A stretch of DNA of 64,000 bases, from NCBI GenBank assembly GCA_965247815.1, contig CBDFHW010000025.1:89058-153057 (forward strand), given 5' to 3'. The translations under genes and the position numbers were made by a program. Shown piece after piece: positions 6,866 to 60,768 of this stretch. This DNA comes from Tepidisphaeraceae bacterium (GTDB lineage Bacteria > Planctomycetota > Phycisphaerae > Tepidisphaerales > Tepidisphaeraceae). Numbering within the stretch: the first letter of the stretch is position 1; every line of letters begins with the position of its first letter. Below the pieces are notes generated by a model. That model was given only the letters and a program-made list of their open reading frames with translations. It made no database searches and was not told where the DNA came from.

Positions 6866-6953
6866 GGGGGCATCACTCGAACTGGTCGTTAGATTCTAAG
6901 GCTTTGTTCCTGCGGGCTCGCTTTTCGATTTGGAATTCGGGCGTTTTGATCCT

Positions 6954-7079
6954 GTCGGCTGGCGTTTCAACTTCAAATACCGGCATTTCAAACCTCTCGG
7001 CTGGCATTTCAACTTCGAATACTGGCATTCCGATCGGGTCGGCTGGCATTTTGACTTTAAATGCTGGCGTTTCTCCACC
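6954..7079. repeat. 42-bp tandem repeat x3 (each with an internal 21-bp half-repeat)
   Basis: Units at 6954-6995, 6996-7037 and 7038-7079 (gtcggctggcRtttcaacttcRaatacYggcatt...). Spanned by three overlapping ORFs in different frames. Confidence 0.85.
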
Positions 7080-36486: not shown

Positions 36487-36686
36487 TATCCAATCTCCGC
36501 TCGTAAAACCTTCCGAAGCGTTCACCGCCATTGATGCATGCGAGCGTACTGCGAGTCGGCGCCGCGGCGAAGTGCTTCACACAACTTTCACAATCACCCC
36601 TTTTATCGCGGGCGTCGTTCCGTATGATCCGATCTCAGCCGGTGACCAACGACCGGCCAGCAGCTTGCGGTCAATCAGGTGACAAG

Positions 36687-38180
36687 ATGATTCGAACTAA
36701 AATTGTGGCGACGATGGGTCCGGCGTGTGGTGACGTGGAAACGTTGCTGAGACTTTTCGAAGCCGGGGTCGACGTCTGCCGGCTGAATTTCTCACACGGC
36801 ACGCTCGACGGACACCTGCTGACCCTGCGAAACATTCACGAAGCGGCGAGCCGATACCACGAACCCATTGCCGTGCTCGGCGATCTGTGCGGGCCGAAGA
36901 TTCGGCTCGGTTCGATCAAAGACGTCGACGGGCTCGGCGGGATGCCGATCAGCGTCGGCGACACGCTGGTTATTCAGCGTGACCCGACCGTCGGTGAAAA
37001 AGGCCGGGTGTCGTCGATCTATAAAGAATTTGTCGACGAGGTTTGTGTCGGGCAGCGGGTGTTGGTCGAAGACGGGCTGTTGCGATTCGTCTGCACGGAG
37101 AAAAAGCCGAACGAAATTATCTGTAACTGCACCGCCGGCGGGGTGCTGAAAAGCTCCAAGGGGATCAACCTCCCGGACACGGCGATCAATACGCCGTCGA
37201 TGACCGACCGCGACTGGGAATGCGTCGACTGGGCGGTCGACCAGCGGCTCGATTACCTGGCATTGTCGTTTGTCCGCAAGGCGGAAGACCTCACCGAATT
37301 GCGGTCGTATCTGCAGGACAAGGTCAGCGATATTCACTTGATTGCGAAGATCGAAAAGGCCGAGGCGATCGACCAGATCGACGGGATCATCGACGCGAGC
37401 GACGGCCTGATGGTCGCCCGCGGCGACCTTGGTGTGGAACTTGACGTCGCGATGGTGCCGATCATCCAGAAGGATTTGATCCGCCGGTGTCAGGCGGCGG
37501 GCAAGCCGGTCATCGTGGCGACGCAGATGCTGCAGAGCATGATCGAGCAGAGCTCGCCGACCCGCGCCGAGGTCAGCGACGTTGCTAACGCGATCTTCGA
37601 CGGGACTGATGCCGTCATGCTCAGCGGTGAAACCAGCGTCGGGAAGTTCCCGGTGATCACGGTGCACACGATGTCGCACATCGCCGACGTGACCGAAGAA
37701 TATCTGACCCGGGCCGACACGGCCTCGACGCCGCCGCCGATGGTGAAAACGTCGCTGCACGCCGGGGCGCTCGCCCGGGGCGCGCTGCGGATCGTGCAGG
37801 ACCTCAAAGCCAAGCTGGTTATCATCTGGACCCAGACCGGCACCACCGCGCGGGTGTTCAGCAAGCATCACTTCCCGGTGCCGATCATCGCGTTGTCACC
37901 GGACCACCGGACGTTGCGGCGGATGGCGTTGCACTACGGCGTGATCCCGCAGGAAATGGCCGGTGCACCTGACATGACATTGTTGATCGCGAAGGTCGAC
38001 GAGTTCGTGGCCCAGCAGAAATACGCCGAACGGGGCGACCGCATTCTCATCGTCGCCGGATGGTCACCGGGCACCCCGGGCACGATGAACGGCCTGGTCA
38101 TCCACACCGTCGGCGACACCTGGACCCCGGTCCCCACCGCACAAATGATGCGGCAGATGGTGAAGTCTGAACGAGATTGA
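36687..38180 (+). CDS. pyk: Pyruvate kinase
   Basis: MIRTKIVATMGPA... start and the pyruvate kinase signature region (MVARGDLGVE). 497 aa from the ATG at 36687. Confidence 0.9.
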   Translation: MIRTKIVATMGPACGDVETLLRLFEAGVDVCRLNFSHGTLDGHLLTLRNIHEAASRYHEPIAVLGDLCGPKIRLGSIKDVDGLGGMPISVGDTLVIQRDPTVGEKGRVSSIYKEFVDEVCVGQRVLVEDGLLRFVCTEKKPNEIICNCTAGGVLKSSKGINLPDTAINTPSMTDRDWECVDWAVDQRLDYLALSFVRKAEDLTELRSYLQDKVSDIHLIAKIEKAEAIDQIDGIIDASDGLMVARGDLGVELDVAMVPIIQKDLIRRCQAAGKPVIVATQMLQSMIEQSSPTRAEVSDVANAIFDGTDAVMLSGETSVGKFPVITVHTMSHIADVTEEYLTRADTASTPPPMVKTSLHAGALARGALRIVQDLKAKLVIIWTQTGTTARVFSKHHFPVPIIALSPDHRTLRRMALHYGVIPQEMAGAPDMTLLIAKVDEFVAQQKYAERGDRILIVAGWSPGTPGTMNGLVIHTVGDTWTPVPTAQMMRQMVKSERD

Positions 38181-38197
38181 GGGGGGGGGAAGTGGGG

Positions 38198-38322
38198 AAA
38201 GGATGAATGATGAACGATGAATGATGAACGAAGAAAGACAGGCGGACAATTCATCGTTGGGGTAGACAAGGCTAAGAATTCTTTGTCTTCATTCATCATT
38301 CATCATTCATCATTCATCGTTC
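38198..38322. repeat. Inverted arrays of heptanucleotide tandem repeats (GATGAAY)x4 ... (ATTCATC)x3 with a 17-bp perfect inverted core
   Basis: Left array 38202-38229 and right array 38290-38315. The perfect 17-mer gaacgatgaatgatgaa (38212-38228) matches its reverse complement at 38299-38315. The whole structure lies directly after the pyk stop. Confidence 0.85.
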
Positions 38323-38912
38323 TCTTCCTCCTCGCCGGGTGCATTACTGGCAAAGCCAATCCCGCGGCGACGCAGCCAGTGACGTATGTTCCGCAGAAGC
38401 AGGCGACGCCGGAGTATTGGTGGAACCAGCCGGGGGTGGTGCGCGTTCCGAATGCCGACTTTCAGAAGCTGTGGGACGCGTGCGAAGGGGAGTTATACGT
38501 CCGGCTGTTTCCGGTGGACCGCCGGCAATACCGAACCGGGTTGTTGACCAGCGAGCCGGTGGTGTCCAAACAATTTTTTGAACCCTGGCGGACCGATGCC
38601 GTTTCGTTTCACGACGTCGGTGAGTCGTCGCTGGCAACCATTCGGCGCACCATTCATTTCGAAGTGACCCGCCAGCCCGACGGCAGCTACGATGCCGTCC
38701 CAAAAGTGCTGGTCGAACGCCACGCCGCTACGGAGCGCCGGCTGACATCGATCGTGCAGTTTCGCCAGGCGTTCAACGGCACGCGTACTGATGCGACGCC
38801 GGATCAGTCCAACACACCGGCACCCGAAGACGAATACTGGTACGCGCTGCGGCGAGACACGGACCTGGAAAAAGATATGGCCGTTTCGATCCGGCATCGT
38901 CTCGCCGACTAA
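38217..38912 (+). CDS. Lipoprotein, hypothetical
   Basis: Lipobox LLAGC. The start is uncertain because the N-terminal codons lie inside the heptamer repeat. No domain recognised. Confidence 0.45.
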   Translation: MNDERRKTGGQFIVGVDKAKNSLSSFIIHHSSFIVLFLLAGCITGKANPAATQPVTYVPQKQATPEYWWNQPGVVRVPNADFQKLWDACEGELYVRLFPVDRRQYRTGLLTSEPVVSKQFFEPWRTDAVSFHDVGESSLATIRRTIHFEVTRQPDGSYDAVPKVLVERHAATERRLTSIVQFRQAFNGTRTDATPDQSNTPAPEDEYWYALRRDTDLEKDMAVSIRHRLAD

Positions 38913-52801: not shown

Positions 52802-52826
52802 TTGATCTTTTGTGCTGTTGTGTGCC

Positions 52827-53378
52827 ATGAACGAAACCAAGAAACCGATCAGCGATTGCAACGACCTCGCGACTCCCGTCGTCGAAGCCGACCACCAGCT
52901 CGGCCCGGCCGACGCGCCGGTCACGCTGGTGGAGTACGGCGATTACGAATGCCCGGACTGCCTGAACAGCGAGCCGATCGTAAAGCAGCTTCGCGATCAA
53001 CTCGAAGACCGGTTGCGGGTGGTGTTCAGGCATTTTCCCAGAAACTCCATCCACCCACGCGCCAGCGCCGCTGCCGAAGCGGCCGAAGCCGCCGCGGCAC
53101 AAGGCCGGTTCTGGGACATGCACGAAGCCCTGTTCAAGCACCAGCAAGAGCTGGTCGACGTGGACCTGACACACTTGGCGTTGCTGCTCGGCCTGGACGT
53201 TTACAAGTTCCAACAGGATCTCGATTCGCCGACGTCTCGTCGCCGGGTGCGTGACAACTACGACGACGCCGTCCGCAGCGGCGTCACCCGCACGCCGACG
53301 TTCTTTATCAACGGCTGCAGGCACGACGGGCCGAACGATTTCGACACGCTGCTCGCTGCGATCAACAGGTACGTCTGA
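52827..53378 (+). CDS. DsbA-family thioredoxin-fold oxidoreductase
   Basis: CPDC active-site motif in a thioredoxin-like context. ATG at 52827. Confidence 0.7.
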   Translation: MNETKKPISDCNDLATPVVEADHQLGPADAPVTLVEYGDYECPDCLNSEPIVKQLRDQLEDRLRVVFRHFPRNSIHPRASAAAEAAEAAAAQGRFWDMHEALFKHQQELVDVDLTHLALLLGLDVYKFQQDLDSPTSRRRVRDNYDDAVRSGVTRTPTFFINGCRHDGPNDFDTLLAAINRYV

Positions 53379-53415
53379 CGTAATTTGTTAGAACCACGAT
53401 TTTTCTCACCGCGGA

Positions 53416-53558
53416 GACGCGGAGGCGCAGAGAAACACCATCTGCGTGCCATTTTTTTCCAAGTAATCCATTCGTTCTTCTGACTGATAGGCGAAATTGG
53501 AACGCGACTGCGGTGCTCTTGGCTGATTCTCTTCTCGGCGACTCTGCGCCTCCGCGGT
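53416..53558. repeat. Long inverted repeat (15-17 bp arms, about 110-nt spacer) between convergent genes
   Basis: Left arm acgcggaggcgcagag (53417-53432) and right arm ctctgcgcctccgcg (53542-53556). The right arm is followed by taaaaaat. Confidence 0.7.
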
Positions 53559-53589: not shown

Positions 53590-56500
53590 TCAATGAAAAT
53601 CGCGCGACCCCACACCGCCGTCCGAAATCAGATGGCTCAGGTCCGTCATCCGCATCACCATCACGTGAACGACCTTGTCCTGTCGTTCGACGTACCCCTC
53701 GGCCTGCACGAGCGTCGAATGTCTCGCGGCCTTTCGGTACCGATCGAACACCACCGGGCGGATGATCAGGTTCGCGATCCCCGATTCGTCTTCCAACGTC
53801 TCGAACACGATGCCGGACGCCGTCCCGGGCCGCTGACGGATCAGCACCAGCCCGGCGACACGGACCCATTTGCCGTGGGTCATGGTTGATAAATCCGCCG
53901 CCGGTGTGACGCGCATCTGCTTTAACTGCTGGCGGATCAACGCGACCGGGTGCCGCTTCAGCGACAGCCCCGCCGTGCGGTAATCGATCGTGACCTCCTG
54001 TGACATCGGCATCGTCGGCAGCGATACCCCGACCTCGGGCGCGGTGTCCTCGGTCAACCAGTCGAACAAAGGCATCGGTTCGCTGTGACATTTCATCACG
54101 TCCCACAACGCCTGCCTGCGGGACAACCCGAGCGAGCCGAAACCGTCGGCCTCGGCCAACGTCCGCAGCGCGTGTGGTGGCAAACCCGTCCGTCGGGCGA
54201 ACTGGTCGACGGACGTAAACGGGCCTCGTGTTCTAACTTCGATAACGCGGTCGGCGTGCGCCCGCCGTAGCCCCCGCACGCGGTTGAAACCGAGCTGCAC
54301 GACCGGCCCGCCGTGCCCCCAGTCCCAGGTGCGGCCGAAATCCGCGACGATCTCCGAATCACCGTGTGAATCATTTTCCGAAGATTCGGCTGTGACCAAA
54401 TCATTCTCGTCCAGTTCATAGCTGTGACCCCGAACACCAAGTGCATGCAGCGTGCATTCCCAACTGCTCTGATTCACGTCGACCGCCAGCACGATCACGC
54501 CGTGCGCCTGCGCGTCGCGGACGATCTGCGCCGGCGCGTAGAACCCCATCGGCTGGCTGTTCAGCAAACCGCAGCAGAAGACCGCCGGGTGGTGCCGTTT
54601 GATCCAGCAGGAGACATAAACCAGCAGCGCGAAACTGGCGGAATGACTTTCGGGGAAGCCGTATTCGCCGAACCCTTTGAGCATGTTGAAACATTGGTCC
54701 GCATATTCCGGCGTGTACCGCTTGGCGAGCATGCCGGCCAGGATCTTCTTGCGGAATTCCTCGACCGCGCCCCCGCGCTTCCACGCCGCCATCGCGCGCC
54801 GGAACCGGTCCGCCTCGTCCCCGGAAAACCCCGCCCCCTTCATCGCGATCTGCATCGCCTGTTCCTGAAACAACGGCACGCCCAGCGTCCGCTTCAGCAC
54901 CTCTTCCAGTTCCGCGCTCGGGTACACGACCGGTTCCAGCCCCCGCCGGCGGCGCAAATACGGGTGCACCATGTCCCCCTGGATCGGGCCCGGGCGCACG
55001 ATCGCGACTTCAATTACAAGGTCGTAAAACGTCCGGGGTCGCAGCCGGGGCAGCATCGTCATCTGCGCCCGCGATTCGATCTGGAACACCCCGACCGTGT
55101 CGGCGTCACAGATCATGTCGTAAACCAACTGGTCTTCCTGCGGGATCGTGTGCATCGCCAGCGGCGGGGTGCTCGGGTAAACCTGGTTGATCATCGTCAC
55201 GCACTTGGCGATGCACGTCAGCATCCCCAGCGCGAGCAGGTCGACTTTGAGAATTTTTAAATCGTCGATGTCCTGCTTGTCCCATTCGATGACGGTGCGG
55301 TCGGCCATCACGGCGTTTTCCACCGGCACCATCTCGCACAGCAGCCCGCTGGTCATGACCATCCCGCCGACGTGTTGACCCAGGTGCCGTGGGAACCCCA
55401 GCAACTGTTCGGACAAGTCGACGATCGTCCGCACCGTGCGGTCGTCGGGGTCGAGCCCGACCTCGGTCAACTTCTCCGGTGTCAGCGTGCCGCGGTCCCA
55501 CCAGTCGAGCCGCTTGGCCATCTGCTCGATCGTGTCCAGGCCGAGCCCCATCACTTTCCCCACGTCGCGCACGGCCGAGCGCCCGCGATACGTAATCACC
55601 TCGGCCGTCATCCCCGCCCGGTCCCGGCCGTATTTTTCGTACACATACTGAATCACTTCTTCGCGGCGTTCGTGCTCGAAATCGACGTCAATGTCCGGCG
55701 GTTCGTTCCGGGCCGCACTGACGAACCGTTCGAACAGGACGTTGATCTGGTCCGGGTTTACCGACGTGACGCCGATGCAATAACAGACCGCGCTATTGGC
55801 GGCCGACCCCCGGCCCTGGCACAAAATGTCGCGCGACCGCGCGAACCGGACGATGTCCTGCACGGTCAAAAAATACGCCTCGATCTGCAACTCGCCGATC
55901 AGTTTCAATTCCCGCTCGATCAGCGTTTTGACTTTCGGCGGAATTCCCTGCGGGTATCGCCCGGCCGCCCCTTCCCAGGCGAGCTCGGTCAGGTATTGCA
56001 GCTGCGTCTTCCCCGGTGAAGTCAGCTCGTGCGGGTATTCGTATTTCAGCTGGTCGAGATTGAATTGACATTGCTCGGCGATATCGAGCCCGCGCTGGAT
56101 GGCTGGCAAATAATCATCGAACAGCACGTGCATCTGCAGCGGCAATTTGAGATACCGTTCGCCATTTTGGAACAATCGGTATCCCGCCTCGTGGATCGTG
56201 CAGCCGTGCCGGACGCACGTCAGCACGTCCTGCAACCGCCGGCGGTCGGGGTGGTGAAAGTGCACGTCATTAGTCGCCAGCATCGGCACGCCGAACGCCC
56301 GGCTCAGCCAGTTAAGGTTCGACAACCGGGTCTGGTTGTCACTTTCATATACACACGACGCCGCGATCGACAACGATTTTCCGAACACGTCTTTCAACTG
56401 CCCCAGGTCCCGGGCGAACGTTTCCGGCACCGGGTCGGGCGGGACCACCGCAACGAGCAGGCCTTTGCCGTGATCGAACAGGTCGTGGATAGATAGATCG

Positions 56501-56883
56501 CATTCACCTTTGATCGTCCGCCGTTTGCCCAGCGTGAGCAGCTGGCACAGTCGCGCGTACGCCGCCCGGTCGGTCGGCCAGACCAATACATCAGGGTGAT
56601 TCGCCAGCACGAGCCGGGCGCCGACCACCAGTTTCAGCCCGACCTCTTTCGCCTTCACGTGCATGCGGACGATGCCGGCTACTGAATTGATATCGGTGAT
56701 GCCGATCGCGCGGTAACCCAGGTGGGCCGCCTGGATCACCAGTTCGTCCGGGTGCGACGCGCCACGCAGGAACGAAAAATTGGTCGTCACCGCCAGCTCG
56801 GCGTACTCGTACGGGCAGGCCCGCACCGTGATGTTCGACGGGGCCGCGGCGTCACGAAGTTTTGGATTAGGATGTTCGGGCAT
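53590..56883 (-). CDS. dnaE2: Error-prone DNA polymerase III alpha-like, DnaE2 (ImuC)
   Basis: 1097 aa. N-terminal PHP domain (AELAVTTNFSFLRGASHPDEL) and Pol III alpha core. Located downstream of imuA-imuB. Confidence 0.9.
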   Translation of the reverse strand: MPEHPNPKLRDAAAPSNITVRACPYEYAELAVTTNFSFLRGASHPDELVIQAAHLGYRAIGITDINSVAGIVRMHVKAKEVGLKLVVGARLVLANHPDVLVWPTDRAAYARLCQLLTLGKRRTIKGECDLSIHDLFDHGKGLLVAVVPPDPVPETFARDLGQLKDVFGKSLSIAASCVYESDNQTRLSNLNWLSRAFGVPMLATNDVHFHHPDRRRLQDVLTCVRHGCTIHEAGYRLFQNGERYLKLPLQMHVLFDDYLPAIQRGLDIAEQCQFNLDQLKYEYPHELTSPGKTQLQYLTELAWEGAAGRYPQGIPPKVKTLIERELKLIGELQIEAYFLTVQDIVRFARSRDILCQGRGSAANSAVCYCIGVTSVNPDQINVLFERFVSAARNEPPDIDVDFEHERREEVIQYVYEKYGRDRAGMTAEVITYRGRSAVRDVGKVMGLGLDTIEQMAKRLDWWDRGTLTPEKLTEVGLDPDDRTVRTIVDLSEQLLGFPRHLGQHVGGMVMTSGLLCEMVPVENAVMADRTVIEWDKQDIDDLKILKVDLLALGMLTCIAKCVTMINQVYPSTPPLAMHTIPQEDQLVYDMICDADTVGVFQIESRAQMTMLPRLRPRTFYDLVIEVAIVRPGPIQGDMVHPYLRRRRGLEPVVYPSAELEEVLKRTLGVPLFQEQAMQIAMKGAGFSGDEADRFRRAMAAWKRGGAVEEFRKKILAGMLAKRYTPEYADQCFNMLKGFGEYGFPESHSASFALLVYVSCWIKRHHPAVFCCGLLNSQPMGFYAPAQIVRDAQAHGVIVLAVDVNQSSWECTLHALGVRGHSYELDENDLVTAESSENDSHGDSEIVADFGRTWDWGHGGPVVQLGFNRVRGLRRAHADRVIEVRTRGPFTSVDQFARRTGLPPHALRTLAEADGFGSLGLSRRQALWDVMKCHSEPMPLFDWLTEDTAPEVGVSLPTMPMSQEVTIDYRTAGLSLKRHPVALIRQQLKQMRVTPAADLSTMTHGKWVRVAGLVLIRQRPGTASGIVFETLEDESGIANLIIRPVVFDRYRKAARHSTLVQAEGYVERQDKVVHVMVMRMTDLSHLISDGGVGSRDFH

Positions 56884-56934: not shown

Positions 56935-58635
56935 TCAACATTTTCCGTGCAGGTACCACTTCCGCGTCTCGTCCACCTGGAACAGCCAGAACCGCTGCCC
57001 CGACTGGTCTTCGACGTCGAAATAGTCCCGCGTTTTATTCCGGCCCTCCCACCACGACCCGGTGATCCGTTCCGGCCCGTTGCGGTGAACCAGGTTGAAC
57101 GCCTCGCCGGCGTGGGTGAACGAAATCGGCAGGTCTTCGCCCAGTTCGTTGGACATCATCGCGCACCCGATTTCGATCGGCTCGGGCAACAGGTGCAGCG
57201 GCCGCGATTTGATCTCCCTGTGGGTTGATTCGACCGGCGTCGGGGGGACCAATTTGAATGCCGGGTTGGACACCGGCAATAGCGAGCTGGTTTGCGCCGT
57301 CGCCTGCCGTGGTTTTTTCTTCTGTACTGCCGGCCGTTTGTGCGTCGCGAAGCTGACCGCCTTTTCCGGCAGATGCGATTCCACCGGGGTCGGGAACGCC
57401 ACCGCCGCTTCCCCGAGCCGCACCCGAAGCCGTTCGATCAGGTAATCGATTTCCCCCTCGGCCAGCTGCGCTTCGCGGTCCAGCAGGTGCAGTTGCTCGA
57501 GCGTCAGCCGTTCGAACACCGGCACCGAAAGCCGAAGACCGGCAAACCCGTCGTTGCCGCATTTCACCGTCTCGGTCGCACACCGCAGCAGGTTCCAAAG
57601 GCCCGTCAGGTCGACGGTGGGGCGCGACAGCTGAATCGTTTTCGTCACCGGCGGCAGACCATTCAGAAGAAACTCGGCCACCAGCGTCCGGGCCCCGCAC
57701 CCCCGCTGATGAAGCTCGTGCAGAACGTCTTTCAGCAGATGTTTGCACGCCTGCCAGAGATCGGTCAGCGAATCGACACCCCCTTCGAATTCCATCCCGG
57801 CAACGACCGGTTGAAAATGCGCGATCGGCAACAACGGTTCGGGCGTCCGCCCCAGCGCCTGGTCCAATCGTTTCAACACCGTCGTGCCGAACCGCGCGGG
57901 CAGCGTTTCGCGGGGCAATCGCACCAGTTGCCCGATGGTTTCAATGCCCAGTGAATGAAAAGTCCGCACGAGATCGTTACCCAACCGCAGAAAAGAAACC
58001 GGCAACGGCGCGAGCGCGGCGGGAAGCTGATCAAGATCGAAAATACGCGCGCCCCGAGATCCCGAAGAACTCTCCGAGCGATGTTGCGCCCGGCTCTTTC
58101 CCGGATCAGAAGGTCGTGACGCCAGCGCCCACGCCGCACCGGGCGTCGGCGCGATCGCGATGCCGTGACGCAGTTTCAACCGGCTGAGCGATTCGGTCGC
58201 CAGCCCCAGCAACCGGTCCATGCCCGAAAAAAGCCGTTCGCTGCCGGTCACGTCCAGGAACAAAGCATCCGGCGGTTCGACCGCAACCACCGGGCTGAAT
58301 CGCACCATCCACCGCGCCAACGCCTGCAGCGCCTGCAGATCTTTATCGGGCCGATGATCCAGATGCGCGAGCCCCGTACACAACGCCCGAGCCTCGGCCA
58401 GCGACATGCCCGGGACCACCCCCGCGGCCGTCGCGTTCGCACAAGCAAACGTCACCAATTGCCGCGCCGCCACCGTCCGAATCAACACCAAGGACGGACC
58501 CGATATCGAACCAACAGACCCCGAGGTCTTCAGACTTCTTTCGGATTTCGGATTTCGGATTTCGGATTTACAACTAGCCTGTCGCTGTTTTCGGTTGACC
58601 CGGTCGATGGGCCATTGGTTCAACCGCACGCACAT
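56935..58635 (-). CDS. imuB: ImuB, Y-family polymerase-like mutasome component
   Basis: ImuB-type N-terminus (MCVRLNQWPIDRV ... VPGMSLAEARALC). Sits between imuA and dnaE2. The start overlaps the imuA 3' end. Confidence 0.75.
   Translation of the reverse strand: MCVRLNQWPIDRVNRKQRQASCKSEIRNPKSERSLKTSGSVGSISGPSLVLIRTVAARQLVTFACANATAAGVVPGMSLAEARALCTGLAHLDHRPDKDLQALQALARWMVRFSPVVAVEPPDALFLDVTGSERLFSGMDRLLGLATESLSRLKLRHGIAIAPTPGAAWALASRPSDPGKSRAQHRSESSSGSRGARIFDLDQLPAALAPLPVSFLRLGNDLVRTFHSLGIETIGQLVRLPRETLPARFGTTVLKRLDQALGRTPEPLLPIAHFQPVVAGMEFEGGVDSLTDLWQACKHLLKDVLHELHQRGCGARTLVAEFLLNGLPPVTKTIQLSRPTVDLTGLWNLLRCATETVKCGNDGFAGLRLSVPVFERLTLEQLHLLDREAQLAEGEIDYLIERLRVRLGEAAVAFPTPVESHLPEKAVSFATHKRPAVQKKKPRQATAQTSSLLPVSNPAFKLVPPTPVESTHREIKSRPLHLLPEPIEIGCAMMSNELGEDLPISFTHAGEAFNLVHRNGPERITGSWWEGRNKTRDYFDVEDQSGQRFWLFQVDETRKWYLHGKC
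58541..58568. repeat. Heptanucleotide microsatellite (TCGGATT)x4 in the imuA/imuB junction
   Basis: Four perfect tandem copies at 58541-58568, 5 nt from the imuA stop (58574-58576) and inside the 5' coding region of imuB (encodes KSEIRNPKSE). Confidence 0.9.
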
Positions 58636-59314
58636 GATTTGTCTCACGGCAGACCTCCAGAAGAACGTTTTTCCCCACACGTCCTCCGTGACCGTGAATC
58701 AATTCCACCGACACCCGCTGGAGCATCCGCTCCCCGCGGGCCGGGGTTACTTTCCATCGCGTGGCGGCGGCGTAGGGCCACGCGACGGCCTCCGCCGGGC
58801 GCAGCAACACACCGATCCCGCCCCCGCGCTCGGCCGCCAACTGCAACCGCCTCGCCTGCACCCGCGTCAACCGGCCCGCCGGGGTAATGCACGCGGCCAC
58901 GCCCCGGCACCGAAGACACTCGGTCACCGCCCAGAGCCCTTCCGCCATCGTCGCCGGCCGCAACACCAGCAGGCGTTCCATCGGGATGCCCAGCGCCAAT
59001 AACGCCGGCGGATACAGGTCCCGGTCGAAATCGCACCAGACGATCATGCCAACCCGCGACTCCGACTGAATCGCCGATCGCGCCAGCAAGGCAGGCAACA
59101 AGAACGGCATCCGCGCCGCCTGCGATTTCACACCGCCTACGCCGTTGAGCACCTCGTGCACGGCCCCGCGGACGAACGCCCCCTCGGGCAACATCTCGTC
59201 CAAAGCCGACAACCCGGTAACCAGCTTCCGCGACCCGCCACCCGCGCGACCGGGCAAATGCCCGAGCCCGGGCAGCGTCCGCAACAACCCACCGACAGAC
59301 GTAATGACATGCAC
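58574..59314 (-). CDS. imuA: ImuA (SulA/RecA-like) mutasome component
   Basis: RecA-fold-like P-loop region. First gene of the imuA-imuB-dnaE2 cassette. GTG start at 59314. Confidence 0.7.
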   Translation of the reverse strand: MHVITSVGGLLRTLPGLGHLPGRAGGGSRKLVTGLSALDEMLPEGAFVRGAVHEVLNGVGGVKSQAARMPFLLPALLARSAIQSESRVGMIVWCDFDRDLYPPALLALGIPMERLLVLRPATMAEGLWAVTECLRCRGVAACITPAGRLTRVQARRLQLAAERGGGIGVLLRPAEAVAWPYAAATRWKVTPARGERMLQRVSVELIHGHGGRVGKNVLLEVCRETNHVRAVEPMAHRPGQPKTATG

Positions 59315-59683
59315 GCACCTTCCCTTGTTTGTACTTTGTTAGGGTACCTGACAAGGCCGCGTCCGGTCAATCCTGTTTTAATTTGGCGACAGGAAGGGAC
59401 GTCCTGACTTTAATGGACCCGTTGGCGGGATAACGATCTATTGGAACCTCTGCACTGCGGCCGAGGTGAAAAATTGTACTCGACCCCAAAACCCACGCGG
59501 TTGCTAAACACACCCACAAAAGGTTGTGGTTTTATGAATTGGGTTATTATCAGCGAATTAGTTACTGGGAGGGAGCGGATAAAGGGTCGAGCGGATAAAG
59601 GGTCGGGAGTCGTTGATTAGACTCCCGACCCTTTAGAATTTCCCGGCGAAGATCAGTCGCGGTCCTCTACCAAAGGAGATTGC

Positions 59684-60768
59684 ATGAGCTATCAGACAAT
59701 TGTGGCTATCGATCTGGGCAAGTTCAAGTCTGTTTTGTGCGTGATGGACGTCGCCACCCGGACGCATCGGTTTACCACCATCGAGTCTTCGCCGACCGCG
59801 ATCCGCGATGCGATTGCTCAGCAGGTCTCGACCGATCCGGCTTTGACCCTGGTGGTCTTTGAGACCTGCGACACCTGCGGCTGGGTGCATGATCAACTCG
59901 CGCCCCTGGGCGTGAAGATCACCATCGTCAACGCCAACGATGAACGCTGGCGCTGGCAGCGGGTGAAGCGAAAGACCGATCAGGATGATGCACTGAAAAT
60001 GGCCAGGCTGGCGCTATTGGATCAATTGCCCACGGTACATCTGCCCGATCCACAGCAGCGGCAGAGACGGCGGTTGATGATTCACCGGCGATCAATCGTG
60101 AGCCGGCGAACGCAGTGCCGCAACGCCATTCGCTCCATTTTCAGCCATCCTTCGACTTCGCTCAGGAGGGTATCGCGCTGGCCAGAGGACAAAAGCAGTG
60201 GACACGCGCCGGCCTAGAGCAACTGCAAAGCCATGCCGCCCCGATCGAGAACTGCGACGTGGACGATCTGTGGAAGGGAAGGCTCAACAGCGAACTGCTG
60301 CTGATGGCGTCGATCAACCAGCAGCTCAAAGCGCTCGATGCCAAGCTGGACGAACTGGCCGACCCGCGCATGAAACTATTGCAGAGCCTGAAGGGCGTTG
60401 GCCCGCGCACCGCAGAGACAGTGGTGCTGTACATCGATGATCCCAAACGATTCAAAACCGGCGAAGAACTGGCCAGCTACGCCGGTCTGGTGCCCAAGCA
60501 ACTGCAAAGCGGTGAAATGAACCGCATGGGCCACATCACCCATCGCGGGCCGGGTCTCTTGCGTGCGATGCTGGTCGAGTCGGCCTGGACAATCTATCGC
60601 CACAACCCCTGGGCACAGGCGTTTGTGAACAAGATCAGCCACGGATCAAAGGCCAGGCGAAAGCTGGCGATCGTCGCGCTGGCCAAAAAGGTGCTGATCA
60701 TTTTGTGGGGCATGCTCAAGAGCAATACGCCGTTCCGACAACCGTCGTCTGTCGCGCTGGTGAGTTGA
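59684..60768 (+). mobile_element. IS110-family transposase gene, disrupted by a frameshift (frames 59684..60217 and 60115..60768)
   Basis: N-terminal DEDD/RuvC-like part (IVAIDLGKFKS ... VFETCDTCGW) in one frame. C-terminal part (GVGPRTAETVVLYIDDPKRF ... YAGLVPKQLQSGE) in another. The shift is near a TTTT run around 60140-60150. Confidence 0.8.

What the first reader, a model, noticed from the sequence alone, without database searches (positions are those of the whole stretch)
38198..38322. Inverted arrays of GATGAAT heptamer repeats forming a long potential hairpin just after pyk
Four tandem heptamers (GATGAAT/GATGAAC) at 38202-38229 face three to four copies of the reverse complement (ATTCATC) at 38290-38315. 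This gives a perfect 17-bp inverted core and about 28 bp of slippable pairing around a roughly 60-nt loop. It begins 18 nt after the pyk stop, and its right arm is read as SSFIIHHSSF inside the annotated N-terminus of the downstream lipoprotein ORF. Heptamer tracts on both arms allow several pairing registers and slipped-strand length variation. This is not a normal intrinsic terminator. It resembles a MITE-like or phase-variable element.
Basis: seen in the sequence. Interest (0 to 1): 0.5.

Follow-up and report, generated by a model that had tools for sequence, protein, structure and literature searches.

The report
Inverted heptamer-repeat hairpin after pyk
Two opposed runs of a 7-base repeat between the pyruvate kinase gene and a lipoprotein gene form a real, very stable hairpin. 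It belongs to a kind of repeat already described in other bacteria and common in this bacterial group, so it is a tidy example, not a new kind of element.

Summary
GATGAAY x4 (38199-38234) faces ATTCATC x4-5 (38286-38321): 36-nt arms, 92% complementary, a perfect 17-bp core, a 51-nt loop, and RNA folding at -70 kcal/mol (z = -6.3).

It is not a dispersed MITE. GATGAA arrays occur only at this pyk-lipoprotein junction in the window and in about 0.95 Mb of related Planctomycetota loci.

It is an old element fixed at this site. Four close relatives carry a heptamer hairpin at the same place with altered units, and both arms usually change together (14 compensated pairs). One relative has non-complementary arms.

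Heptamer arrays dominate tandem repeats in these genomes (67 unique arrays, against 8 or fewer for any other period). About a third of them form inverted pairs. Inverted heptamer repeats of this kind are already described in Xanthomonas and Nostoc.

Most likely the arrays arise by replication slippage, and template switching between arms keeps them complementary. Stem mismatches show no G-U bias on the sense strand (15 G-T against 18 A-C).

The right arm is certainly translated as part of the lipoprotein signal peptide, and the hairpin buries both candidate start codons. It probably insulates pyk from the lipoprotein gene.

Phase variation is mechanically possible but unsupported: the tracts are short and no copy-number differences were seen.

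The parts
36684..38180 (+). Pyruvate kinase gene (pyk). The stop codon is TGA 38178-38180.
   Evidence: Pfam PK (E = 1.4e-109) and PK_C (E = 1e-24). ORF listed. pyk lies directly upstream of the lipoprotein gene in the relatives as well.
38181..38198 (+). Purine-rich outer 5' strand of the stem (GGGGGGGGGAAGTGGGGA), including a G9 run.
   Evidence: It pairs with 38322-38335 in the minimum-energy folds. Purine-rich flanks are also present in the orthologs.
38199..38234 (+). Left arm: AAG + GATGAAT GATGAAC GATGAAT GATGAAC + GAAGA. It contains ATG codons in all three frames, including ATG 38217.
38217..38219 (+). Candidate start codon 1. This ATG, in the third repeat unit of the left arm (GATGAAT, 38216-38222), is the only in-frame ATG, and the frame stays open from it to the lipobox Cys.
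   Evidence: In orthologs L140 and L138 an ATG in the left arm (in its last repeat unit in L140) is likewise the only in-frame ATG (L140 also has an in-frame TTG just before the right arm; L138 has no other in-frame start).
38235..38285 (+). Loop of 51 nt. It holds a small inner stem and an extra ATTCATCGTT copy (38249-38258) that can pair with the left arm as an alternative.
   Evidence: (I9, I11, D2). Loops cannot be aligned between orthologs, apart from TTGTCTT just before the right arm.
38283..38285 (+). Candidate start codon 2 (TTG), 3 nt before the right arm. It would give a 19-residue signal peptide, MSSFIIHHSSFIVLFLLAG|C.
   Evidence: A TTG or ATG sits at the equivalent position in L140, L136 and L143.
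38286..38321 (+). Right arm: TCTTC + ATTCATC x4 + GTT. It is translated as SSFIIHHSSFIV within the signal peptide.
38322..38335 (+). Pyrimidine-rich outer 3' strand of the stem (CTCTTCCTCCTCGC). It encodes the hydrophobic LFLLA stretch before the lipobox Cys.
38217..38912 (+). Conserved lipoprotein gene with no Pfam family. The lipobox Cys codon is TGC 38340-38342.
   Evidence: 199 homologs, all from Planctomycetota-type sources, for example Fontivita pretiosa. G41 and C42 are invariant. No Pfam hit.

Best explanation
**What it is.** The element is a site-specific, vertically inherited pair of opposed heptanucleotide simple-sequence repeats, in effect an imperfect palindrome of about 125-155 bp. 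It belongs to the class of inverted heptamer arrays that is abundant in Planctomycetota and already described in Xanthomonas and Nostoc.

**Origin and maintenance (inferred).**
- Replication slippage creates each arm, keeps its units alike, and changes its length.
- Occasional template switching between the arms restores Watson-Crick complementarity at the DNA level.
- As a result the units drift between lineages while the palindrome persists.

**Why it is tolerated here.** It fills a short spacer and runs into a signal peptide that is later cleaved off and has loose sequence requirements. The purine-rich arm reads as charged residues and the pyrimidine-rich arm as hydrophobic ones.

**Consequence (inferred, not shown).** On any pyk read-through transcript the RNA folds into a hairpin of about -70 kcal/mol. 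This hairpin starts 18 nt after the pyk stop codon and buries both candidate start codons and the first 13-35 codons of the lipoprotein gene. It should therefore act as an intercistronic insulator:
- it forms a structured 3' end or processing site for pyk mRNA;
- it blocks independent translation initiation of the lipoprotein gene.
For: - **Real and non-random.**
- **Single copy.** There is one copy in the window. GATGAA arrays in about 0.95 Mb of related loci occur only at the orthologous junction.
- **Orthologs at the same site.** Relatives at about 70% protein identity carry heptamer hairpins between pyk and the lipobox with related units: GATGAAG/CTTCATC in L143, ATGCAGA/TCTGCAT in L140, and a degenerate form in L138.
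- **Arms change together.** 87.5% of cells are paired, against 40-58% when the partner is slid. 14 pairs changed on both sides, a value reached by 0 of 500 shuffles.
- **Arms are homogenised separately.** L136/L137 have GCAGAAT x4 on the left and ATTCATC x3 on the right. Only 5 of 7 positions pair, and the fold gives z = -1.4. L138 gives z = -2.2. So the hairpin is not indispensable.
- **Unit-sized indel.** The near-identical contigs L094 and L095 differ by one unit in a sister element that L093 lacks.
- **No wobble bias.** In 18 junction hairpins the sense strand has 15 G-T against 18 A-C mismatches. This fits complementarity kept at the DNA level better than selection on a sense-strand RNA.
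- **Period 7 dominates.** There are 67 unique arrays of at least 20 nt, against 2, 7, 8, 2, 1 and 1 for periods 5, 6, 8, 9, 10 and 12. Block-shuffled loci give about 1.
- **Inverted partners.** 24 of 75 heptamer arrays have an inverted partner within 300 nt.
- **Depleted inside open frames.** 27% of arrays lie deep inside long open frames, against 73% of random positions.
- **Varied contexts.** Comparable hairpins sit after stop codons and between convergent genes.
- **Literature.** Rehm et al. 2015 (PMC4692102) report 70-75 inverted GGGAATC pairs in Xanthomonas. The arrays lie between the same genes in two species but vary in length and sequence. The authors cite the polymerase-slippage idea for heptamers.
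- **Start codons and right arm.** Both lie inside the stem-loop.
Against: - No expression, RNA-end or read-level data exist for this organism, so the insulator role is inference only.
- Compensated changes and persistence down to an ortholog at 40% identity (L109, TTCATCC) would also fit selection for the structure.
- The G-T against A-C test rests on only 33 mismatches.
- Units are homogenised within arms, so the 14 compensated pairs reflect only a few independent events.
- Template switching was not observed directly.
- Why seven bases is favoured remains unexplained.
Confidence: 0.6

Rival explanations
1. The hairpin is a selected cis-regulatory RNA and exists because of its function. On this reading it works like the H. 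influenzae hmw 5'-UTR hairpin, or like a terminator or translational-coupling device without a U-tract. It would control how much lipoprotein is made from the pyk transcript, for example through RNase III cleavage or through unwinding by ribosomes that terminate at the pyk stop codon 18 nt upstream.
For: - The fold is very stable in three of five close orthologs, with z from -6.7 to -9.2.
- There are compensated changes.
- A hairpin of some kind (7-, 8- or 9-nt units) sits between pyk and the lipobox in about 20 of about 100 unique orthologous loci.
- In several lineages a start codon overlaps the pyk stop codon: ATGA in L077, L009 and L125, and TGATG in L059.
- hmw is an experimental precedent.
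- This genome region lacks canonical terminators.
Against: - L136/L137 and L138 have lost most of the pairing yet keep the arrays and the gene.
- Most orthologous loci have no hairpin at all.
- There is no G-U over A-C bias on the sense strand.
- The same kind of hairpin occurs in unrelated contexts.
- Loops are not conserved.
Confidence: 0.2
2. The element is a phase-variation switch. Slipped-strand gain or loss of one 7-nt unit in the translated right arm would turn the lipoprotein gene off or on.
For: - The repeat unit is not a multiple of 3 and lies inside the ORF.
- After a +/-7 shift, no start codon remains in frame with the Cys (my reading).
- A unit indel between near-identical contigs occurs in a sister element.
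- L070 has its only good start codon out of frame across an 8-nt array.
- Precedents are hmw and, from my own knowledge, the Neisseria opa CTCTT repeats within a signal peptide.
Against: - There are only 4-5 units.
- Tracts are identical in independent contigs of three orthologs: L136 = L137, L138 = L139, and L140 = L141 = L142.
- Cluster members differ only in which start codon was called.
- 83 of 85 unique orthologous loci have an in-frame start codon.
- Such hairpins also occur in non-coding 3' positions.
- This is a soil or free-living lineage with no evident need for antigenic switching.
Confidence: 0.1
3. The arrays are binding sites for a protein that recognises 7-nt units on single-stranded RNA or DNA, for example a cold-shock-domain protein with one monomer per heptamer. 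The inverted layout would then be secondary.
For: - Period 7 dominates strongly.
- MacGregor 2015 notes that CspB binds heptamer repeats.
- The Nostoc work proposes an unidentified heptamer-binding factor.
- G..GAA is invariant within the unit across the five orthologs.
Against: - Unit sequences differ widely between sites and genomes, so no single sequence-specific binder fits.
- Arms of 8, 9 and 10 nt occur in otherwise similar hairpins.
- No candidate protein is linked to the locus.
Confidence: 0.05
4. The element is a mobile non-autonomous element of the MITE, REP or REPIN kind that inserted between pyk and the lipoprotein gene.
For: - It has an inverted-repeat architecture.
- A sister element shows presence/absence polymorphism (L093 against L094).
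- A different, 8-nt-unit hairpin family with conserved ACC...GGT ends does recur at several sites.
Against: - There is one copy in 64 kb, and none away from the orthologous junction in about 0.95 Mb.
- There is no target-site duplication.
- There is no GTAG or CGTC tag.
- Orthologs carry diverged versions at the same site.
Confidence: 0.03

Closest known systems
Inverted pairs of heptameric simple-sequence repeats in Xanthomonas (GGGAATC) and Nostoc (GGGGAYT), Rehm et al. 2015, PMC4692102
   Same: - Tandem 7-nt units, mostly about four per array.
- Mostly intergenic.
- 70-75 cases per genome of two arrays in convergent orientation that can form stem-loops.
[quoted passage not shown]
- Function unknown; polymerase slippage is invoked.
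   Different: - Those units are G-rich, form G-quadruplexes, and one unit dominates the genome.
- Here units differ from site to site, the unit is AT-rich in a genome of about 60% GC, and one arm is translated.
H. influenzae hmw1A 5'-UTR (ATCTTTC)n hairpin processed by RNase III, PMC12721329
   Same: - A heptamer repeat transcribed upstream of a surface-protein gene.
- It forms a long hairpin that controls expression.
- It is flanked by a G-rich partner region, comparable to the G9 tract here.
   Different: - In hmw only the left arm is repetitive, with at least 10-11 units, and the repeat lies in the untranslated leader.
- Copy number there is demonstrably variable and RNase III cleavage is shown.
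- Here both arms are repeats of 4-5 units, one arm is coding, and nothing has been tested.
Cyanobacterial STRR heptanucleotide repeats (Calothrix, Anabaena, Nostoc); TAACTGA repeats of Beggiatoaceae, PMC4679880
   Same: - Abundant intergenic tandem heptamers, often right next to start or stop codons.
- Function unknown.
- From my own knowledge, one STRR unit (TTGGTCA) is a rotation of the GTCATTG unit seen in L007-L009.
   Different: - They are mostly direct arrays of a few genome-wide units. TAACTGA has only one inverted case.
- They occur in different phyla.
REP / BIME / REPIN elements
   Same: Intergenic palindromes proposed to stabilise upstream mRNA, to terminate transcription, or to structure DNA.
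   Different: - REPs are 20-40 bp, high in copy number, tagged with GTAG or CGTC, and mobilised by RAYT transposases.
- This element is single-copy, untagged and built of tandem units.
- True GTAG-type REPs do exist in some related loci (L020, L006, L054) and look different.
Neisseria opa CTCTT repeats (from my own knowledge, not checked here)
   Same: A repeat whose unit is not a multiple of 3, lying inside the signal-peptide coding region of an envelope protein gene.
   Different: - opa tracts are longer, have a single orientation, and their switching is demonstrated.
- No hairpin partner is involved.

Membership tests
Heptameric SSR inverted pairs (Rehm 2015 type; STRR-like) | Tandem array of 7-nt units, at least 2-4 copies | tested here: met
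   3.9 and 4.9 copies at 90-96% matches.
Heptameric SSR inverted pairs (Rehm 2015 type; STRR-like) | A second array of the reverse-complement unit close by on the other strand | tested here: met
   36-nt arms, 92% complementary, 51 nt apart.
Heptameric SSR inverted pairs (Rehm 2015 type; STRR-like) | Period 7 over-represented among tandem repeats of the lineage | tested here: met
   67 unique heptamer arrays against 8 or fewer for any other period in 0.92 Mb of related loci; about 1 in shuffles. Within the window itself there are only three arrays.
Heptameric SSR inverted pairs (Rehm 2015 type; STRR-like) | Same intergenic site occupied in relatives, with varying length and sequence | tested here: met
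   L143, L140, L138, L136 and L109.
Heptameric SSR inverted pairs (Rehm 2015 type; STRR-like) | Intergenic location | tested here: inconclusive
   The element fills the pyk-lipoprotein spacer, but its right arm, and perhaps part of its left arm, is inside the ORF.
Intrinsic (Rho-independent) terminator | Short GC-rich stem, loop of 3-8 nt, followed by a U-tract | tested here: not met
   The stem is AT-rich and 36 bp or longer, the loop is 51 nt, and it is followed by CGTTCTCTTCC. The scan did not list it.
MITE | Multiple dispersed copies with terminal inverted repeats and target-site duplications | tested here: not met
   Single copy in the window and none at other sites. The flanks are complementary to each other and are not direct repeats. 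The complete source genome could not be searched.
REP / REPIN | Palindrome of 20-40 bp with a GTAG or CGTC tag, high copy number | tested here: not met
   No tag and single copy.
Phase-variable contingency locus | Repeat tract whose unit is not a multiple of 3, in an ORF or promoter | tested here: met
   The right arm is in frame inside the signal-peptide codons.
Phase-variable contingency locus | Copy-number polymorphism at the locus between strains or reads | tested here: not met
   Tracts are identical in 2-3 independent contigs for each of three orthologs, and no variant cluster members were found. Reads of the source genome were not available, so this test is weak.
Phase-variable contingency locus | Tract long enough for high slippage rates | tested here: not met
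   4-5 units here. The hmw system has at least 11 in nature (section title).
Any Rfam family | Score at or above the family's gathering threshold | tested here: not met
   Only generic hairpin hits to plant and animal microRNA precursor models, at 27-34 bits against thresholds of 73-99.
hmw-type RNase III-processed 5' hairpin | RNase III cleavage and an expression change that depends on repeat number | not testable with these tools
   This needs RNA work in the organism or a heterologous host.

The most novel reading that the evidence does not exclude
In Tepidisphaerales and Phycisphaerae, hairpins built from opposed short tandem repeats (units of 7, 8, 9 or 10 nt) could be a general, selected way to punctuate operons in a lineage without canonical terminators. 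At the pyk-lipoprotein junction such a hairpin would double as the coding sequence of the signal peptide: the purine arm would encode the charged N-region and the pyrimidine arm the hydrophobic core. This would couple or gate lipoprotein synthesis to pyk translation, possibly with RNase III as in hmw, and repeat slippage would give a slow on/off switch.
Probability: 0.12. Interest if true: 0.6.

Novelty: new member of a known kind. Interest (0 to 1): 0.35.

Why it matters
- **Annotation.** The element explains the odd repeat-derived N-termini (FIIHHSS, MQNAECRM, IADCRLQI and the like) that gene callers attach to this lipoprotein family and probably to many other Planctomycetota proteins. It also flags real uncertainty about start codons at such sites.
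- **Biology.** This is a clean orthologous series in which both arms of a repeat-built palindrome change together. One relative is caught in a mismatched state. That makes it a useful natural example for telling DNA-level concerted evolution (slippage plus template switching) apart from selection on RNA structure.
- **Distribution.** It extends the poorly understood excess of heptamer repeats, known from cyanobacteria, Xanthomonas and Beggiatoaceae, to Planctomycetota.
- **Limits.** It does not reveal a new type of system, and no function is demonstrated.

Tried and rejected
- **Rfam.** A permissive search gave only sub-threshold generic hairpin matches.
- **Consensus terminator and promoter scan.** Nothing at the element, and no enrichment of canonical terminators.
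- **Copies elsewhere.** None in the window or in related loci.
- **Source contig.** An exact look-up of the window protein found nothing. The rest of the source genome and its name therefore stayed out of reach, and the taxonomic placement rests on homologs alone.
- **Cluster members.** Examined for copy-number variants in the N-terminus. The differences turned out to be alternative start calls on identical DNA.
- **Home-made gene caller.** My crude GC3-based gene caller was unreliable, for example around 33-36 kb. I replaced the context statistics with a test based only on open reading frames.
- **Partner for the TTTCGGA array.** The array at 58539-58569 has no inverted partner.
- **Literature.** Mrazek et al. 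2007 was not held in the library, so its slippage idea is cited through Rehm 2015. No paper describing such hairpins in Planctomycetes was found.
- **Promoter inside the loop.** Considered and judged unconvincing. The hexamer matches I found by eye are weak, and the loops of the orthologs are only 32-51 nt.

Full report
**1. The observation**

The sequence at 38178-38345 reads: TGA (pyk stop), a purine tract with a G9 run, GATGAAT GATGAAC GATGAAT GATGAAC GAAGA, a 51-nt loop, TCTTC ATTCATC x4 GTT, and then a CT-rich tract that runs into GCC GGG TGC.

- Tandem Repeats Finder finds both period-7 arrays.
- The repeat finder gives 36-nt arms at 92% complementarity, plus seven alternative registers shifted by multiples of 7 nt.
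- The longest perfect inverted match is 17 bp.
- The 13-mer pattern hits only here in 64 kb: 8 hits against 1.1 expected.
- The RNA folds at -70.4 kcal/mol (z = -6.3), the opposite strand at -64.9 (z = -9.7), and the DNA at -37 (z = -6.7).
- The stem continues outward into the G-rich and CT-rich flanks.
- Local GC falls to 0.40-0.43 in a background of about 0.6.

**2. The flanking genes and the start codon**

- The upstream ORF is pyruvate kinase (Pfam PK and PK_C).
- The downstream ORF has 199 detectable homologs and no Pfam family. Named sources are Tepidisphaerales or Phycisphaerae genomes, including Fontivita pretiosa.
- In an alignment of 26 homologs, Gly41-Cys42 is invariant and preceded by a hydrophobic stretch, which is a lipoprotein lipobox.
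- Upstream of the Cys codon (38340), the only in-frame ATG/GTG/TTG codons are ATG 38217, inside the left arm, and TTG 38283, 3 nt before the right arm.
- Any workable signal peptide therefore includes the right arm.
- Orthologs do not settle which start is used:
  - L136 has an ATG in the loop that gives a textbook MRSLSLFIIHHSSLIILFLLFLLSGC.
  - L140 and L143 have a TTG or ATG at the position equivalent to 38283.
  - L140 and L138 also need a left-arm ATG if the basic residues encoded in the loop are to be translated.
- Either way, the initiation region is inside the stem-loop.

**3. The same site in relatives**

I fetched 135 loci around homologs and the contigs of the four closest proteins. 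The pyk-lipoprotein order is conserved.

The four closest relatives, at 69-73% protein identity, all have opposed heptamer arrays in the spacer:

| Locus | Left unit | Right unit | Note |
|---|---|---|---|
| window | GATGAAT | ATTCATC | complementary |
| L143 | GATGAAG | CTTCATC | complementary |
| L140 | ATGCAGA | TCTGCAT | complementary |
| L138 | degenerate GGATGAA | TTCATCC | degenerate |
| L136/L137 | GCAGAAT | ATTCATC | not complementary, 5 of 7 pair |

- On the five-sequence alignment, RNAalifold predicts 41 pairs, of which 14 changed on both sides.
- 87.5% of cells pair, against 40-58% when the partner is slid. No shuffle out of 500 reaches the observed values of four of the five measures (4 of 500 do for the count of further pair types).
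- Units are homogenised within arms, so these 14 pairs represent only a few independent events.
- Fold stability is high in the window, L143 and L140 (z from -6.7 to -9.2). It is largely lost in L138 (z = -2.2) and L136 (z = -1.4).
- More distant orthologs carry hairpins at this junction built of other units: 7-nt units (L056, L125, L109), 8-nt units (L059, L070), and the GCGAAGNN type in L003, L007, L009, L077 and L081. Most loci have none.

**4. The wider class**

- In 0.92 Mb of these loci, unique tandem arrays of at least 20 nt number 67 for period 7. Periods 5, 6, 8, 9, 10 and 12 have 2, 7, 8, 2, 1 and 1. Block-shuffled sequence gives about 1.
- 24 of 75 heptamer arrays have an inverted partner within 300 nt.
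- Among long hairpins, 21 unique ones have period-7 arms.
- The arrays avoid long open frames: 27% lie inside them against 73% of random positions.
- Units differ widely from site to site.
- Such hairpins lie just after stop codons (L094, L007-L009) and between convergent genes. The window's second example is at 53408-53558.
- The near-identical contigs L094 and L095 differ by exactly one GGCCAGA unit, and L093 lacks that element altogether.

**5. Mechanism**

Shown:
- the arrays, their complementarity and the fold;
- an orthologous site with co-varying arms;
- separate homogenisation of each arm (L136);
- a unit-sized indel (L094 against L095);
- translation of the right arm, if the protein is a lipoprotein.

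Inferred:
- Slippage generates and homogenises each arm. This idea is cited for heptamers by Rehm et al..
- Template switching between arms restores complementarity. The mechanism is established for quasi-palindromes, which I state from my own knowledge; it was not observed here.
- The mismatch spectrum supports maintenance at the DNA level over selection on a sense-strand RNA. In 18 junction hairpins there are 15 G-T and 18 A-C mismatches, whereas functional RNA stems normally tolerate G-U far better than A-C. The sample is small.

Consequence for expression, by inference only:
- The hairpin begins 18 nt after the pyk stop codon and encloses both candidate start codons.
- It should give pyk transcripts a structured 3' region and should block free initiation on the lipoprotein gene.
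- Start codons that overlap the pyk stop codon in other lineages hint at translational coupling at this junction. These are ATGA in L077, L009 and L125, and TGATG in L059.

**6. The rivals**

- **MITE or REP.** Rejected. The element is single-copy, has no target-site duplication and no tag, and is inherited at a fixed site.
- **Phase variation.** Mechanically possible. After a +/-7 nt change in the right arm, the other two frames have stop codons in the loop and no start codon before the Cys (my reading). The hmw system is a close precedent. Against it:
  - the tracts are short;
  - no polymorphism was found in independent contigs or cluster members;
  - 83 of 85 unique orthologous loci are in frame.
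- **Selected regulatory RNA.** A real possibility that I cannot exclude. It is weakened by L136 and L138, by the many orthologs without a hairpin, and by the symmetric mismatch spectrum.
- **Heptamer-binding protein.** Does not fit the diversity of units or the 8-10-nt variants.

**7. Comparison with what is known**

- Opposed heptamer repeats that can form stem-loops, at conserved intergenic sites with variable content, are described for Xanthomonas and Nostoc (PMC4692102).
- Heptamer direct repeats next to start codons are described for Beggiatoaceae, cyanobacteria and Bacteroidetes (PMC4679880) and for Nostoc DNA-repair genes (bioRxiv 10.1101/2022.06.06.494920).
- I found no description for Planctomycetes in the held library.
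- The element is therefore a new member of a known, functionally unresolved kind. It has two noteworthy features: the arms co-evolve across an orthologous series, and one arm serves as signal-peptide codons.

**8. Verdict**

The feature is real and its structure is well understood. Interest is moderate to low, at 0.35.

Noticed in passing
window 53408-53434 and 53532-53558: A second hairpin built of tandem repeats. The units are 8 nt (GCGGAGNN), the ends are ACC...GGT, the loop is 97 nt, and it is flanked by T5 and A6. It lies between a convergent DsbA-like ORF (52812-53378 +) and a DnaE2-like ORF (53590-56883 -). The same architecture (ACC + GCGRAGNN units ... GGT) recurs in L003, L007, L009, L077, L081, L011 and L027, so this looks like a dispersed and possibly mobile family.
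   Followed up: partly
window 58539-58569: A perfect TTTCGGA x4.4 heptamer array with no inverted partner. It sits at or just upstream of the 5' end of the minus-strand ORF 56935-58680, next to the dnaE2-like gene.
   Followed up: partly
window 38183-38191: A G9 homopolymer run starting 3 nt after the pyk stop codon. It forms the outer 5' strand of the stem and is itself prone to slippage. It is absent from the four closest orthologs.
   Followed up: partly
window 6951-7073: A 42-nt tandem repeat, 2.9 copies at 79% matches, with an internal 21-nt sub-period. Only short ORFs overlap it.
   Followed up: no
window 59573-59635: A perfect 16-nt direct repeat, 2.1 copies (GAGCGGATAAAGGGTC), overlaps a perfect 16-bp palindrome (59596-59611 with 59620-59635, loop of 8 nt). 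It lies about 50 nt upstream of the ORF that starts at 59684.
   Followed up: no
L070 931-1059: In this metagenome contig the only plausible start of the lipoprotein ortholog (GTG/ATG giving MVAGRRARALLF...) is one base out of frame with the lipobox Cys, and a 4-unit 8-nt array (TCACCTTG) lies between them. Gain of one unit would restore the frame. This could be an off allele, a pseudogene or an assembly error.
   Followed up: partly
L077 2826-3024 and L009 5680-6006: An ORF whose ATG overlaps the pyk stop codon (ATGA) encodes MK(T/P)SLL(M/F)SSRLCYAG... Six of the ten nucleotide differences between the two loci are synonymous. The frame stays open through the whole hairpin to the lipobox Cys. 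Either a conserved leader peptide exists or the hairpin is fully translated there.
   Followed up: partly
L094 2400-2551, L095 2232-2378 and L093: A heptamer hairpin with arms of about 62 nt (GGCCAGA / TCTGGCC and variants) lies directly after the lipoprotein stop codon. The two near-identical contigs differ by one 7-nt unit, and the more distant L093 lacks the element.
   Followed up: yes
L020 826-897, 6643-6718, 7589-7663; L006 2227-2288; L054 518-586: Classical GTAG-tagged REP-like palindromes (for example GTAGGGTGCGCTTCAGCGCACC) occur in several copies per locus in some related genomes. They are clearly distinct from the tandem-repeat hairpins.
   Followed up: no
L012 5743-5962, L056 1157-1271, L059 2095-2209, L093 1134-1246, L105 874-998: Another recurrent palindromic family, CCCTCTCCCGG(T/A)A(T/C)TCCGGGAGAGGG followed by GGGTGAGGG-like tails, is present in several genomes.
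   Followed up: no
Alignment A1 (homolog N-termini): Many database proteins of this family carry N-termini that are translated repeats, for example MQNAECRM, MTNDEIRMT, IADCRLQI, SSFVLRPSSLIRHSNF and ICILQSAICNL. Gene callers disagree on the start codon for identical DNA (P0002/P0121 and P0005/P0122).
   Followed up: yes
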